Source of the DNA: Acidimicrobiia bacterium
Lineage (GTDB): Bacteria > Actinomycetota > Acidimicrobiia > Spongiisociales > ZC4RG35
Length of the DNA: 64,000 nt
Direction of reading: 5' to 3'
Assembly (NCBI GenBank): GCA_965203555.1
Contig: CBDBCY010000004.1
Span: forward strand, 1,152,001-1,216,000
This document shows, piece by piece, positions 24,477 through 29,095 of this stretch (position 1 is its first letter; every line of letters starts with the position of its first letter). Made by a program: the position numbers and the translations under genes. The notes under the pieces are model-generated. The model worked only from the letters and a program-made list of their open reading frames with translations. It was not told the DNA's origin and did no database searches.

Positions 24477-24601
24477 TCAGTTCGATTAGGTGAACAGATG
24501 GAGAGAGAGTATCTAGCTGGGTCCCCCTTGAGGATGTTCTGGCACCCTGGATCAGGAAGTGGCTTGTTGTGTGCCTCGGTTCGACGTACATTGGGATCCC
24601 T

Positions 24602-24874
24602 ATGAGCGCCAAGACCAAACAGTGGACCCTCAGGGTGACACCGGCCCAGGACACCATCGTGCGCCGGGTGCTGAGTTCCAACGGGATGTCGCTGAGCGAG
24701 TACGTGGTCAGCCGTGCGGTCGCCTCGGCTGTCCAAGAACTGGCTGACCGTCAGGTCTTTGCCGTGTCCGAAGAGGCATGGGAGAAGCTTCAAGAAGTGC
24801 TCCAACGCCCGGCGACGGCCAGGCCGAAAGTGGCAGCGTTGCTGGCGGGGGACTCAGTACTCGACTCGGGATAG
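24602..24874 (+). CDS. DUF1778 (TacA-like) antitoxin
   Basis: LRVT...SLSEYV...LADR..F.VSEEAWE..Q..L.RP...P.VAALL. Confidence 0.85.
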   Translation: MSAKTKQWTLRVTPAQDTIVRRVLSSNGMSLSEYVVSRAVASAVQELADRQVFAVSEEAWEKLQEVLQRPATARPKVAALLAGDSVLDSG

Positions 24875-24975
24875 AGCCCATACCGGGGCTGTAACTGCCG
24901 GGCTGCTTCGCATGAAGTTGACAGAGTCGACGGCCGCAATGAGTCGCTCGACAACTGGCTCAAGCGGCGGGCGCC
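24875..24975 (+). pseudogene. GNAT (TacT-like) toxin N-terminal remnant
   Basis: HEVDRVDGRNESLDNWLKRRA matches the H...FDCG..SLD.WL.RRA start of GNAT toxins. Directly follows the DUF1778 gene. Confidence 0.65.
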
Positions 24976-25084
24976 ACGCCACCGGCTGTGGTCTCTTGCA
25001 GGCGCTCTTCGTCCGCCCGGGAGAGGCTGTGGAGAGCACCCGCCGCCGGCGCCGGATGCAGTTGCGCGATCCGGTCAAGCCGCT

Positions 25085-25205
25085 CGGCAAGGTGGTCTCA
25101 AGATCGTATTGGCTCTGTAACCCCATCCAGAAGAGCGGAGAATTGCCGAAAAAGCTCGCCAGCAGCAGAGCCGTTTCAGCAGTGACGGCCCGTTCGCGCG
25201 GACGA
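25085..25205 (-). pseudogene. HigA antitoxin C-terminal remnant
   Basis: RAVTAETALLLASFFGNSPLFWMGLQSQYDLE is the HigA signature. Confidence 0.8.
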
Positions 25206-25467
25206 TGCCTCACCGGCACGCCTGACGTCGCCCAAACGATCCGAATGAGGTGAGAGGTTGACTGGCCATCTAGTCGTGTCTAAGTTAGGGCGTGTTCACA
25301 TTACATACGCGCCGCGGATGAGGTGGAGGTGATGAGAGCGAGGAATCTTAACCGACCGGGAGGCCGGTTCTGTCACCGGCGCCCGGTGGGTGCTTTTCGG
25401 TAGCCGTAGACCTCTGGGGTGAGATTTTTCGGTATTTTAGTGTTTGTTTTCACAACTTGGTGATGTT

Positions 25468-25490
25468 TTGTCACACCCCCTGTGCATACT
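25468..25490 (+). promoter_or_regulatory. RecA-NDp/PafBC-like DNA-damage promoter, leaderless
   Basis: TTGTCACAC-N8-CATACT followed 6 nt later by ATG 25497, resembling tTGTCRgtg-N8-TAnnnT. Confidence 0.5.
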
Positions 25491-25496
25491 GTACAC

Positions 25497-26726
25497 ATGA
25501 AACAAGCAGTCAACAGTCGGCGGTCCGCCAACCTGGCCAAGTTGCTGGCGCCCACCATGCCGGTCGTGGACGCGTCGGTTGAAGAACTGAAACAGCGAAT
25601 ACAGTCCACCATCCGCGTCCAGAACCAAGCCGCCGCGGTCCGCGCCCAAGCAGTGTCGGAGTTGCGCCGCCGCCAGGGAACAGAGAAGGTGGAAACGGTA
25701 TTGCGGGAAGACGGTCTGTTGGGCCGTCGGAAGGCCCGATCTGAGGCGGAGACCGCCCGGGGGTTGGAGGAACTGCCCAAAACCCGGGAAGGTTTCCAAA
25801 AAGGAGAGATCTCTGCTGACAACGCCCGTATCCTGGCGGGCGCCAACCAGAGGGGAACCATCAACGAGGACGAATTGTTGGACGGGGCCCGTTCCCAGTC
25901 TCCCGACAAGTTCGCGGCCACGGTACGCAAACACGAACAGGCCCGTGCCCAAGATGATGGTGTTTCCAAGTTGGAGCACCAGCGCTCCCGCCGGTTCGCC
26001 AAGATCACCACCGACCAAGACGACGGAATGACCGTCCTGTACGGGCGTTTCGACCCGGTCACCGGCGCCCGGGTCGAAACCGCGGTGTCTCACATGATGA
26101 AACAACTATGGCACCAAGAAGACCCCAGGGATCGGGCCACTGCGGGTCAGCGGATGGCCGACGCCATAGCCGAACTGGTCACCCGCCAAGGAAAAGGAAA
26201 AGACGGTCGTTCCCAGGGCGCGCGCCTGTTGTTGATCGCCGACTACGACACGATCAGCCAACAGTTGAGCAACCCTCGCCTCGAGAACGGAACCCCCCTC
26301 CCCGCCCGTACCCTGCGACAGTTGGCCTGCGACGCTCAGATCCTCCCCGCCATCTTCTCAGGACCGTCGGTACCCCTGGATTTGGGAAGAGCCCGGCGAA
26401 CAGCCAGCGGTTCCCAACGGGCCGCCCTCGTCGCCCGCGACAAACACTGCATCGGATGCGGCGCCAAAGCCTCCTGGTGCCAGGCCCACCACATCGTCCA
26501 CTGGCAAAACAACGGTCCCACGAACCTGGACAACATGTGTCTTCTGTGCAGCAGATGCCACCACAAAGTACACGACCAGGATTGGACGGTACACAAAACA
26601 CCCACCGGCAAATACACCCTCCGCCGCCCACCAACCACCGACTGGAACCCACGTCGCCGCACCCCCAACCGCTACCGCCCCCCACCCACCCGCAAACGCC
26701 GACGTCCCATGCATCAAAGAAAATGA
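25497..26726 (+). CDS. DUF222 / HNH endonuclease (13E12-repeat-like)
   Basis: QRMADA, LACDA, PLDLGR..R, RDKHCIGC...CQAHHIVHW..NGPTNLDN...LCSRCHHKVH. Confidence 0.92.
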   Translation: MKQAVNSRRSANLAKLLAPTMPVVDASVEELKQRIQSTIRVQNQAAAVRAQAVSELRRRQGTEKVETVLREDGLLGRRKARSEAETARGLEELPKTREGFQKGEISADNARILAGANQRGTINEDELLDGARSQSPDKFAATVRKHEQARAQDDGVSKLEHQRSRRFAKITTDQDDGMTVLYGRFDPVTGARVETAVSHMMKQLWHQEDPRDRATAGQRMADAIAELVTRQGKGKDGRSQGARLLLIADYDTISQQLSNPRLENGTPLPARTLRQLACDAQILPAIFSGPSVPLDLGRARRTASGSQRAALVARDKHCIGCGAKASWCQAHHIVHWQNNGPTNLDNMCLLCSRCHHKVHDQDWTVHKTPTGKYTLRRPPTTDWNPRRRTPNRYRPPPTRKRRRPMHQRK

Positions 26727-26844
26727 AACAGCCCGCCACCCAAAAGCGTGAACACGCCCTAGTCGAACCGCTCTTAACCGCGGTTAGATCACAGAGGGCA
26801 TTTGGTTGCCGCATTGAGACGTCATGGGGCGGTAAGGATCCTAG

Positions 26845-28654
26845 GAGGCTGCTGATTTATTCGGGTTGGTGAGATGCTTGGTTTGGGGGGTGGGTTGTGG
26901 GATAATTTTGGGGTATGTTGGGTGTTGAGCGTTTTGATCGGGAGTTGTTGGACGCGATGGCGGTGTGCGGTGATCTGGTGCCGGAGGGGTCGGTTTACCG
27001 GTTTTTGGCCGAGCATCGGACTGTGGTGTTCCCGGATGGGTTGTTCGAGGATTTGTTCGGCCCTCGGGGTCGTCCGTCGGTTCCGGGATCGGTGGTGGCG
27101 ACGGTGATGGTGTTACAGGCCTTGGAGGGCCTGTCCGATCGGGAGGCGATCGGTCGGTTGCGGTGTGATATTCGTTGGAAGGCCGCGGCGGGTTTGTCGC
27201 TGGTTGATGGGGGGTTTCATCCCACGGTGTTGACGCTGTGGCGAGCAAGGCTGCGCAACAGTGAGAGACCGGAACGGATTTTCGACGCGGTTAGGAAAGT
27301 GGTCGACCAGACCGGGATATTGAGAGGTCGCAGCAAGCGGGTGTTGGACTCCACGATATTGGATGATGCGGTGGTCACCCAGGACACGGTGACGATGATC
27401 TGTGCCCAGATACGCAAGGTCCGCCGTTTGATACCCCGAGCGCGGCAGGTGAGGTTGTCCCGTGATTATGAACAGACTGGTAAGCCGTCGTGTGATTGGT
27501 CGGATCCGCAGAGTCGTTCCAGCCTGATCGACGGTCTGGTCAAGGACGGACAGGAAGTGCTGAAAGCGGTGGAAAACACTGTTTTGGACACCGGGCAGTC
27601 GGAGGCCGTGGGGTTGTTGGGGGTGGTGGTCGGCCAGGACGTGGAACCGGACCCCGACCGGGAGGGCAGATGGCGTATCGCCCGGCGGGTGGCTTTGGAT
27701 CGGACGATATCGGTGGTCGACCCGGACGCTCGTCACGGACGGAAAACATCGTCGCAGCGTTTGCGACGGTTACAAGGCTCACATAGCTGCTGAACCGGAG
27801 ACGGAGATCATCACCGTCGTTGAGGTCACCGCCGCCAATACCCCCGACGGGGAGACCGGCGCGAGAATGCTGCAAAAAGACGCAACGGCTGGCACGGACG
27901 ACACCCACGAACCGGCTGGCATGGATGATCCGGCTGGTGTGGACGATCCGGCTGGGGTGGAGGTCATCGCTGATTCGGCGTACGGGTCGGGCGAGGTTCG
28001 CGCCAAGTTGGAAAAGGCCGGGTATACCACCACTGTGAAACCGATACCGCCTGTGTCGTAACTATCGGTTGGGCAGTGACCAGTTCACCCGGGACGATTT
28101 CGAGGTGGATCACGACCGAAAACAGATCACCTGCCCGGCCGGGGTAACGGTGAACATCAGCCCCAAAGGCTGGGCCCGGTTCGCAAAACACTGCACCGGT
28201 TGTGGTTTTCGGAGTCGTTGCACCACCAACCGACGGGGTCGCCAGATGCGGATCCACCCCCATGACCGGTTACTGGTCCAAGCCCGCCGAAAATGGAAAG
28301 ATCCCCCGACCAAACACCGGTACAACAAGTACCGGTCGACGGTTGAGCGGCTGATCGCTCACTTGGTTGCCAACGGCCACCGCAAACTCCGCTACCGGGG
28401 CACCGCTCGAAACCGGCAACAACTACACACCCGCGTAGCGGCGATCAACCTGCGCAGGCTCATCAACCTCGGACTGCACCCCACCACCACCGGATGGGCC
28501 ACCAACCCGATCTAACACCGGGGACCCCCAACAGAGAACAAGCAAACACTGGAGGACACCGGCCATCACCCCTCCACCGGTGCGCCCACCGCGCCGCTTT
28601 CGAGATCAAGCCCAGTGACCCACCACCCACCGAACGCCAATACTCAGCAGCCTC
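26845..28654 (+). mobile_element. IS1182/IS5-like element copy 2, transposase with two frameshifts
   Basis: Same IRs as copy 1, with CTAG at 26841-26844 and 28655-28658. ORF pieces 26915..27793, ~27770..28061 and 28069..28515. Confidence 0.92.
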
Positions 28655-28741
28655 CTAGATCCGGTGGTCAGTGGTGTCTGTGATTGAGCAAGCGTCGCTT
28701 TCCGGTGGCATACTGGTCTCCATCCTGAGAGAGGACCCAAA

Positions 28742-29095
28742 GTGGCAGTGGAAATGGCGATCTGGCGAATGACCGATGACGGACCGCGGCGGTTGCGGTC
28801 GTCGCCGCTCCATGTTGAACAGCGGCTTGAGGACATGCTCGCTGAGTACCCTGGTATGACTGGGATCGACCTGCTTGTCGTGGGAAGAGCGGGATGGTGG
28901 GAGGACACGGACTCAGAGGACCCGGAAGTTACTGAGATGGTCGTGCCGGTCAAGTGGCTCGGCACGCGGCCGCTGGAGGAGGCAGTGTGGGAAAAGGGTC
29001 TCTTCGCTAACCAACTCACCGCCTGCAGACTGCGGGACAAGCACACGATCACGACCGTCGAATCGGCCTTTGGGCTCCGCTCCGGAGTCGACTGA
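28742..29095 (+). pseudogene. NucS/DUF91-like endonuclease, internally deleted in frame
   Basis: N-terminus MAVEMAIWR...EQRLEDML...LLVVGR is joined directly to the C-terminus VVPVKW...AVWEKGLFANQ.TAC.LR. The PD-(D/E)xK core expected between them is absent. Confidence 0.6.

What the first reader, a model, noticed from the sequence alone, without database searches (positions are those of the whole stretch)
25286..26761. DUF222-HNH nuclease packaged between IS5-like terminal inverted repeats, with no transposase
Seen: a perfect 14-bp IR (TAGGGCGTGTTCAC / GTGAACACGCCCTA) with TA at both outer edges. Inside are ~70 bp ending in 'RGILTDRE' (like the start of IS427-group IS5 transposases), a hairpin (25355-25392), a promoter, and an intact HNH gene whose stop is 21 bp from the right IR. 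Known: DUF222/HNH (13E12-like) genes are multicopy in actinobacteria and their mobility mechanism is unclear, and other IS families carry nucleases as cargo (TnpB, IscB). Inference: a non-autonomous transposon in which an HNH nuclease replaced the transposase and might promote its own retention or homing.
Basis: partly seen in the sequence, partly recalled or inferred. Interest (0 to 1): 0.7.

Follow-up and report, generated by a model that had tools for sequence, protein, structure and literature searches.

The report
HNH nuclease gene riding IS5 shell
A nuclease gene of a puzzling repeat family has taken the place of the transposase inside a small jumping-gene shell and was copied about sixteen times around this bacterial genome, which shows one concrete way this family spreads.

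Summary
Window 25286-26761 is a 1476-bp unit with perfect 14-bp terminal inverted repeats around an intact DUF222-HNH gene and no transposase.

It is a non-autonomous derivative of an IS5-family insertion sequence.
- The same genome holds one 817-bp IS with the same ends. Its transposase carries a premature TGA.
- Relatives hold 73-74% identical full-length copies without that TGA.
- The element's left ~65 nt are the 3' end of that transposase gene read antisense. The right ~26 nt are the IS 5' end.
- Sixteen HNH copies carry these arms. The 13 intact ones form one clade.
- Three orthologous empty sites in sister species show insertion at a TA that is duplicated.

Ten other intact HNH copies lack the arms, and one of them is flanked by a 46-nt direct repeat. 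The IS shell is therefore a second vehicle for a gene that also spreads by other means.

All copies differ by at least 7%, so the family is fossil. The ORFs remain under purifying selection (median dN/dS 0.18).

What the nuclease does is unknown.

The parts
25286..25287 (.).
   Evidence: Three orthologous empty sites of other copies hold one TA where the filled site has one at each end. Not shown for this copy itself.
25286..25299 (+). Left terminal inverted repeat
   Evidence: Identical to the end of the 817-bp IS at C4:3127550.
25286..25350 (-). Left arm: about 65 nt derived from the 3' end of the IS5-family transposase gene, which reads on the minus strand
   Evidence: Aligns with the 3' ends of the IS copies of G000, G008 and G009. 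BLAST of the IS against the genome hits the left arms of other HNH copies at 79-85%.
25351..25434 (+). Leader with two small hairpins (AACCGACCGGGAGGCCGGTT; CACCGGCGCCCGGTG followed by a T-rich tail). Origin and role unknown.
   Evidence: Conserved in 11 long-left copies. Terminator-like site at 25373-25389. Absent from 4 short-left copies that keep intact ORFs. No Rfam match.
25435..25496 (+). Start of the HNH core unit (TTTTAGTG...): a conserved upstream block that presumably holds the gene's own promoter
   Evidence: Homology to all HNH subfamilies in the genome, and to the listed matches in the other 16 species, starts near here (element position about 150, none before 145). The consensus scan found no promoter.
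25497..26726 (+). DUF222-HNH nuclease gene, 409 aa, intact
   Evidence: Pfam. HNH motif CxxC..HH..N..CxxCH..H is invariant in 23 of 23 intact paralogues. AlphaFold2 model pLDDT 86.3.
26736..26761 (+). Right arm: about 26 nt derived from the IS 5' end, including the right inverted repeat 26748-26761
   Evidence: 26 nt are 96% identical to the 5' end of the G008 IS copy. Repeat.
26760..26761 (.). Right TA, second copy of the target dinucleotide
   Evidence: As for the left TA.

Best explanation
The 1476-bp unit is a non-autonomous IS5-family element of the mobile-insertion-cassette type. A DUF222-HNH gene with its own upstream block, in antisense orientation, replaced almost the whole transposase gene of an ~817-bp IS. 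What remains of the IS is about 65 nt of its 3' end and about 26 nt of its 5' end, with both terminal repeats.

Inferred: the DDE transposase of an intact sister IS, supplied in trans, recognised these ends and inserted the unit at TA dinucleotides, duplicating the TA. This spread the unit to about 16 places in this lineage.

Shown: the common ends, the cognate IS, the discrete boundaries and the TA empty sites.

Inferred: mobilisation in trans, and that the HNH protein is cargo and not needed for the jump.

The family is now fossil. No two copies are closer than 93%, and the only cognate IS in the assembly has a premature stop. The nuclease genes themselves are still kept intact by selection, for a function that is not known.
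For: 1. Boundaries. Whole-element BLAST hits to five other copies run from within 1-2 nt of the left tip to within 3 nt of the right tip, and the flanks are unrelated.
2. Arms. 10 of 23 intact copies have a left repeat within 3 mismatches, 122-226 nt before the start codon. 6 of 23 have a right repeat 32-36 nt after the stop. Further copies have degenerate arms.
3. Cognate IS. C4:3127550-3128366 is 817 bp with ends TAGGGCGTGTTCAC...GTGAACAGGCCCTA. It has orfA and orfB with an A-rich slippery site. It hits Pfam DUF4096 and DDE_Tnp_1 and NCBIfam NF033580, IS5 family (134 bits for orfB, cut-off 110).
4. IS in relatives. Six matches spanning the full IS length (query 1-817) at 73-74% identity lie in G008 (1), G009 (3) and G003 (2). 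The three read in full (one per species) have the same ends and TA flanks.
5. Arm alignment. The left arms align to the IS 3' end. Copy C4:2305064 keeps about 190 nt of it.
6. Empty sites. Of 7 copies examined, 3 were clean.
   - G007 '..AAAAC TA CCCTGTCC' against G000 '..GACAC CA[GGGCG..CGCCC]TA CCCTGTCC'.
   - G003 'ACAG TA GCCGGCCCGATCA' against G000 'CCAGC TA[AGGCG..CGTCC]TA GCCGACCCGATCA'.
   - G002 'GCC TA GTCTCC' and G008 'CTCC TA GTCTCC' against G000 'ACC TG[GGGTGG..CGCCC]TA GTCTCC'.
7. One clade. The 13 intact arm-bearing copies form one clade (SH-aLRT 99; 96.6).
8. A different native signature. An arm-less copy is flanked by a 46-nt direct repeat (85% identical, spacing 1787).
Against: - No recent movement. 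The best pair among arm-bearing copies is about 92% identical, and the best pair overall is 93%.
- No working transposase. The only cognate IS in this 95%-complete assembly has TGA at codon 19, where the IS copies read in G008, G009 and G003 have Arg. Trans-mobilisation therefore cannot be shown in this genome.
- Empty sites are incomplete. Of the 7 copies examined, 1 site is empty in G003 but flanked by TG..CA rather than TA..TA. Three, including the window copy, could not be resolved.
- Shell variants disagree with the gene tree. The short left arm and the long 3' extension are polyphyletic on it (AU p 2e-38 and 8e-6). The groups were named after the tree was seen. This needs recurrent deletion between the 10-nt repeats ATGAGGTGGA, or exchange of cores between shells.
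- The G008:C47 copy. It has IS-derived arms, but its protein is 96% identical to an arm-less G008 copy and clusters with three of them. Cores may therefore enter shells without transposition.
Confidence: 0.8

Rival explanations
1. Shells first, gene later. Small transposase-less derivatives of the IS (MITEs) spread by transposition. The HNH core then copied itself into each resident shell by site-specific homing or gene conversion. The nuclease gene would be an invader of IS sequence, not cargo moved with it.
For: - The HNH core has sharp ends of its own, from TTTTAGTG to the stop codon, shared by copies in unrelated contexts.
- G008:C47 joins a core that is 96% identical to an arm-less G008 paralogue with an IS-derived arm and a 117-bp IS-derived MITE.
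- Shell variants are polyphyletic on the core tree.
- REP13E12 loci are among the most gene-converted loci of M. tuberculosis (PMC13061034, passages read).
Against: - No HNH-free shell of MITE size with these ends was seen among the motif hits that could be read in this genome. Those with at most 1 mismatch belong to HNH copies, the IS, one solo right end, one 28-bp repeat-to-repeat remnant and one hit that looks like chance. The middle of that list was cut from view.
- At 3 of 3 resolved sites the sister species lack the shell as well as the gene.
- No long identical tracts between paralogues were found. The longest run is at most 3.6 times expectation.
Confidence: 0.1
2. The HNH protein is itself the mobility enzyme of the repeat-bounded unit. 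On this reading a nuclease has taken over the transposase's job and recognises the IS ends.
For: - The catalytic HNH motif is invariant in 23 of 23 intact copies.
- The ORFs are under purifying selection although the cognate transposase is broken.
- The N-terminal part of the model resembles ParB/KorB-type DNA-binding domains. The match is weak (Z 6-7, 96-98 residues aligned).
Against: - The insertion signature, a TA duplication at exact repeat tips, is that of the DDE IS itself. The IS copies in relatives have the same TA flanks.
- Arm-less HNH copies carry an equally conserved gene, and one of them is flanked by a 46-nt repeat.
- The protein is not specific to the shell. Arm-less paralogues are 74-79% identical in protein to the window's copy, and one G008 copy with arms is 96% identical to one without.
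Confidence: 0.05
3. The inverted repeats are a chance match, or belong to an unrelated repeat that merely happens to flank one HNH gene.
For: None found.
Against: - 0 of 100 shuffles give any match.
- The repeats recur at the ends of many HNH copies and of an IS.
Confidence: 0.01

Closest known systems
Mobile insertion cassettes (MICs) and other non-autonomous IS or transposon derivatives that carry passenger genes. Examples are Tn3-family MICs of Xanthomonas (PMC4337579, seen as search listing and start of abstract only) and MIC231 of Bacillus cereus (recalled, not from a call).
   Same: - Terminal repeats of a known IS family.
- No transposase.
- An unrelated gene inside.
- Many dispersed copies with the IS's own target duplication.
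- A cognate autonomous IS exists.
   Different: - The passenger belongs to a gene family that is itself multicopy and spreads without the shell.
- The shell is an IS5-family element in an uncultured member of a DUF222-rich phylum.
- The copies are old, yet their ORFs are kept by selection.
IS5 family, small ~0.8-kb members with orfA/orfB frameshift (NCBIfam NF033580). In ISfinder terms this is the IS427-like group with 2-4-bp duplications (group name and duplication length recalled, not from a call).
   Same: - Identical terminal repeats.
- TA-flanked insertions.
- The arms are pieces of such an IS.
   Different: The element encodes no DDE transposase and cannot move by itself.
REP13E12 / DUF222-HNH '13E12 repeat' family of mycobacteria and other Actinomycetota. 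Gordon et al. 1999 was seen only as a citation in PMC10589994. PMC13061034 passages were read.
   Same: - Same domain pair, PF02720 + PF01844.
- Multicopy and dispersed.
- No known function.
- A huge family: 17,940 cluster representatives at E <= 0.001.
   Different: - Here one clade has explicit transposon ends and a demonstrated insertion signature.
- 0 of 22 evaluable DUF222 loci from other genera showed bracketing repeats above shuffled controls.
IscB and TnpB, nuclease genes carried in IS200/IS605-family elements
   Same: A nuclease gene sits within transposon ends. The HNH domain is most like that of IscB in sequence and fold (E 0.002-0.02; Z 7.3-7.5 over 64-67 residues).
   Different: - No RuvC domain.
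- No Rfam RNA match beside the gene.
- A DDE-type shell with TA duplication instead of a single-strand HUH transposon.
- The likeness covers only about 60 residues.

Membership tests
Mobile insertion cassette / non-autonomous IS derivative | Terminal inverted repeats identical or near-identical to those of an autonomous IS | tested here: met
   The same 14-nt ends are found on the 817-bp IS at C4:3127550-3128366 and on IS copies of G008, G009 and G003.
Mobile insertion cassette / non-autonomous IS derivative | No transposase gene inside. A gene unrelated to transposition is present instead. | tested here: met
   The only long ORF with a family hit is DUF222-HNH.
Mobile insertion cassette / non-autonomous IS derivative | Evidence of movement as a unit: several copies with unrelated flanks and the IS's target duplication | tested here: met
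   Five other copies align tip to tip with unrelated flanks. Of 7 sites examined, 3 clean empty sites hold a single TA.
Mobile insertion cassette / non-autonomous IS derivative | Mobilisation in trans by the cognate transposase | not testable with these tools
   This needs a transposition assay. The only cognate IS in this assembly has a premature TGA.
IS5 family (autonomous IS) | Encodes a DDE transposase of the family | tested here: not met
   The window element has none. The separate 817-bp IS does (NF033580, 134 bits, cut-off 110).
DUF222-HNH (REP13E12-type) proteins | PF02720 followed by PF01844 with an intact HNH motif | tested here: met
   The motif is invariant in 23 of 23 intact copies.
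IscB/TnpB-type RNA-guided nucleases | RuvC domain and an adjacent guide RNA | tested here: inconclusive
   Only the HNH part matches (NF040563, 31.9 bits against a cut-off of 175). No Rfam family matched in 24500-29000. An undescribed RNA cannot be excluded.
Known anti-phage defence proteins (PADLOC) | Match to a defence-system model | tested here: not met
   0 families at E <= 0.01.

The most novel reading that the evidence does not exclude
DUF222-HNH genes are invaders of insertion sequences. Their nuclease cuts IS DNA, the gene copies itself in place of the transposase, and it then uses the IS ends as a second vehicle, moved by sister transposases. If this recurs across IS families, it would explain part of the spread of the REP13E12-type family.
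Probability: 0.15. Interest if true: 0.75.

Novelty: new member of a known kind. Interest (0 to 1): 0.5.

Why it matters
DUF222-HNH genes of the REP13E12 type are among the commonest multicopy genes of Actinomycetota. Their function and their way of spreading are both unknown.

This genome shows two ways side by side. One clade spread by ordinary transposition inside a borrowed IS5 shell, with TA duplication. Other copies, including one flanked by a 46-nt repeat, did not use it.

That gives explicit ends, target sites and a candidate helper enzyme, so the question can be put to a bench test.

It also shows that a nuclease gene can outlive the transposon that carried it. The IS is dead, while the intact cargo genes, 13 of them in this shell, are still under selection. 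This points to a function of their own.

Tried and rejected
- Rfam scan of 24500-29000 at E <= 1: no match.
- Consensus promoter scan: none found.
- RNAalifold on 11 left arms: only weak, scattered pairs.
- Empty site of the window copy: the left flank is a mosaic of multicopy toxin-antitoxin remnants, and the right flank is 78 nt before an IS1182-family element. No orthologous site was found.
- Copies C4:687772 and C4:2751562: junctions not resolved.
- Public runs: contigs of X1 and X3 bridge the left junction, and contigs of X1, X3 and X5 bridge the right one. No joint skips the element, so no presence/absence polymorphism was seen. These are contigs, which drop rare variants.
- RNA run X6 has short contigs on the ORF at 93-99% likeness. 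They may come from paralogues or from DNA, so this is no evidence of expression.
- Recent gene conversion among paralogues: the longest identical runs are at most 3.6 times expectation, which is no clear signal.
- The IS origin of the hairpin leader could not be shown. The alignment is unconvincing beyond about 190 nt.
- Foldseek against PDB: no match at E <= 0.001.
- VIA-align: only the HNH part, plus a weak ParB/KorB-like match for residues 44-151. At Z 6-7 this is below what the tool calls trustworthy for helical domains.
- PADLOC: no hit.
- The search for related loci in genome contigs reached only same-genus records and four distant partial matches.
- Bracketing-repeat survey of DUF222 loci from other genera: 0 of 22 evaluable. 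Five were not evaluable. Two loci from unpublished genomes and the genome's own locus were left out.
- Literature: 0 papers hold 'HNH endonuclease', 'non-autonomous', 'insertion sequence' and 'passenger' together. The 5 papers with DUF222 + HNH and the 22 with REP13E12 were seen as listings only, apart from passages of two of them. None of the listed titles points to an IS shell. Papers outside the library, and the supplements of those papers (not opened), could bear on this.

Full report
**Observation**

The window holds a perfect 14-nt inverted repeat, TAGGGCGTGTTCAC at 25286-25299 and its complement at 26748-26761. With up to one mismatch the motif occurs nowhere else in the 64-kb window, and none of 100 shuffles gave a match.

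Between the arms lies one intact ORF, 25497-26726 from the ATG, with Pfam DUF222 and HNH domains. It ends 21 nt before the right arm. There is no transposase ORF.

**Census in the genome**

The window is G000:C4:1152001-1216000 of a 3.4-Mb, four-contig assembly.

BLAST and tblastn find 27 HNH loci:
- 23 with intact ORFs of about 405-415 aa;
- 2 frameshifted;
- 1 interrupted by a ~1.45-kb insertion;
- 1 remnant.

Copies are 67-93% identical in DNA. Across the 253 pairs of intact copies the median dN/dS is 0.18. Sister pairs at different loci give 0.14-0.23. The HNH motif is invariant in 23 of 23. The genes are therefore kept by selection where they sit.

**Two kinds of copy**

Sixteen copies, 13 intact and 3 broken, carry arms like those of the window element. 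I grouped them by eye and by the motif search.
- 10 of 23 intact copies have a left repeat within 3 mismatches.
- 6 of 23 have a right repeat 32-36 nt after the stop.
- Others have degenerate arms.
- Five copies align with the window element from tip to tip, with unrelated DNA outside.

The 13 intact arm-bearing copies form one clade on the gene tree (SH-aLRT 99, 96.6).

The other 10 intact copies share only a core that starts sharply at TTTTAGTG (window 25435). In several of them a conserved ~390-nt 3' extension follows.

The listed matches in the other 16 species of the genus also start near this point. None starts before element position 145. In G008 four copies share exactly TTTTAGTG to the stop codon.

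**The shell is an IS5-family IS**

The third genomic copy of the 14-mer is one end of an 817-bp element at C4:3127550-3128366, bounded by TAGGGCGTGTTCAC...GTGAACAGGCCCTA.
- It encodes orfA and orfB joined at an A-rich slippery site.
- It hits Pfam DUF4096 and DDE_Tnp_1 and NCBIfam NF033580, IS5-family transposase.
- It is the only such IS in the assembly. Its orfA has TGA at codon 19, where the IS copies read in G008, G009 and G003 have Arg.
- Six matches spanning the full IS length at 73-74% identity lie in G008, G009 (three) and G003 (two). The three read in full, one per species, have the same ends and TA on both sides.

The left ~65 nt of the HNH element align with the 3' end of this IS, which is the end of the transposase gene on the opposite strand. 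Copy C4:2305064 keeps about 190 nt of it. The right ~26 nt match the IS 5' end.

**Insertion signature**

I looked for orthologous sites in sister species for seven copies.

| Copy | Result |
|---|---|
| C4:1591522 | Clean. G007 reads ..AAAAC TA CCCTGTCC where G000 reads ..GACAC CA[element]TA CCCTGTCC. |
| C4:24498 | Clean. G003 reads ACAG TA GCCGGCCCGATCA where G000 reads CCAGC TA[element]TA GCCGACCCGATCA. The TA belongs to a stop codon. The site is also unoccupied in G002, G004, G007 and G008. |
| C4:2537994 | Clean. G002 and G008 read ..CC TA GTCTCC where G000 reads ..CC TG[element]TA GTCTCC. |
| C4:930904 | Empty in G003, but flanked by TG..CA. |
| C4:687772, C4:2751562 and the window copy | Not resolved. 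|

The unit proper is therefore GGGCG...CGCCC, inserted at a TA that is duplicated. This is the same signature as the IS copies in relatives.

An arm-less copy shows a different signature. It is flanked by a 46-nt direct repeat, 85% identical, with spacing 1787.

**What complicates the simple story**

- The shell comes in variants. Four copies have a short left arm lacking ~105 nt between two copies of ATGAGGTGGA. Five have a long 3' extension homologous to that of the arm-less copies, and only one of those five has a clear distal right repeat.
- These variants are polyphyletic on the gene tree (AU p 2e-38 and 8e-6). I named the groups after seeing the tree. Either deletions recurred, or cores were exchanged between shells.
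- In G008 one of seven HNH copies examined (C47) has an IS-derived left arm and a 117-bp IS-derived MITE after its stop codon.
- That whole 1.6 kb is absent at the orthologous G000 site.
- The C47 protein is nevertheless 96% identical to an arm-less G008 copy and clusters with three of them.
- Gene conversion among REP13E12 loci is documented in M. tuberculosis (PMC13061034, passages). I found no clear recent tracts in G000.

A rival therefore stays open at about 10%: the shells spread first and the gene then copied itself into them.

**Age and present state**

No two arm-bearing copies exceed about 92% identity, and the cognate IS is broken.

In public runs, contigs of X1 (0 differences) and X3 (9 differences in 708 nt) bridge the left junction. 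Contigs of X1, X3 and X5 bridge the right junction. No joint skips the element. The insertion in the window is old and shared by related strains.

**The protein**

The family is huge, with 17,940 cluster representatives at E <= 0.001. DUF222 is found in 61 of 151 sampled genomes of the phylum. That tally includes five unpublished genomes, all of which have matches.

An AlphaFold2 model has pLDDT 86.3 and pTM 0.70.
- Only the HNH part matches solved structures: IscB and McrA-type enzymes, Z 6-7.5.
- Residues 44-151 resemble ParB/KorB DNA-binding domains weakly (Z 6-7).
- There is no PADLOC hit.

A DNA-binding domain joined to an HNH nuclease would fit a site-specific endonuclease, but this is a lead and not a result.

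**Comparison and novelty**

In mechanism the unit is a mobile insertion cassette, that is, a non-autonomous IS5-family derivative. It meets the defining features that can be tested in silico.

Bracketing repeats are not general for DUF222 genes: 0 of 22 evaluable loci from other genera had them, in a crude screen.

The library searches found no paper describing a DUF222-HNH gene as IS cargo.

I rate this a new member of a known kind. It has moderate interest because it gives this enigmatic family explicit ends, targets and a testable helper.

Noticed in passing
window 26840-28659: An IS1182-family element lies 78 nt right of the HNH element. Its transposase is split into two ORFs, 26915-27793 (DUF772) and 28069-28515 (DDE_Tnp_1_6). 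Three other full-length copies (93-94% identical) and several partial ones are in the genome. One copy abuts the TA tip of the IS5 copy at C4:3127549/50 exactly.
   Followed up: partly
window 24569-25270: Left of the element lie a TacA-type antitoxin ORF (24569-24874, +) and a truncated HigA/XRE-like ORF on the minus strand (24854-25219; start near 25270). Pieces of this flank recur in many species of the genus, so this is a patch of toxin-antitoxin remnants and ISs.
   Followed up: partly
G000:C4:689257-689408 and C4:1147527-1147676: A ~150-160-nt MITE-like repeat with ends CTTAGAGGGCCGCGCGGTTAGGG.../...CCTACCCGCGCGGCCTCTAAG sits 6 nt from HNH copy C4:687772. Its end also flanks copy C4:930904. 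Copies occur in G008, G003 and G015.
   Followed up: partly
G000:C4:2435384-2435411: TAGGGTGTGTTCAC directly abuts GTGAACCGCCCCGG. This is a 28-nt repeat-to-repeat remnant of the same IS ends with nothing between them. It may be a fully deleted element or a junction footprint.
   Followed up: no
G000:C4:2306492-2307943: HNH copy C4:2305064-2308506 is split by a ~1.45-kb insertion inside the HNH motif region. The insertion was not identified.
   Followed up: no
Arm-less copies, e.g. L114 (G000:C4:833000-836300) and G000:C2:74900-76750: Arm-less HNH copies share a ~390-nt conserved non-coding 3' extension ending near ...ATCGCGAC. A motif GTTTT(T/C)(G/C)CCACTCTTG lies 60-90 nt after the stop, and it is also kept in the long-right-arm copies. 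Its function is unknown, and it was not tested for an RNA.
   Followed up: no
G000:C4:2813168-2813216: A solo right end of the element: the last ~49 nt with the repeat and no gene.
   Followed up: no
L016 1101-1522 (G000:C4:1591100-1591521) against G007:C1:1135060-1135092: The gene beside copy C4:1591522 has about 400 nt that G007 lacks at the same place.
   Followed up: no
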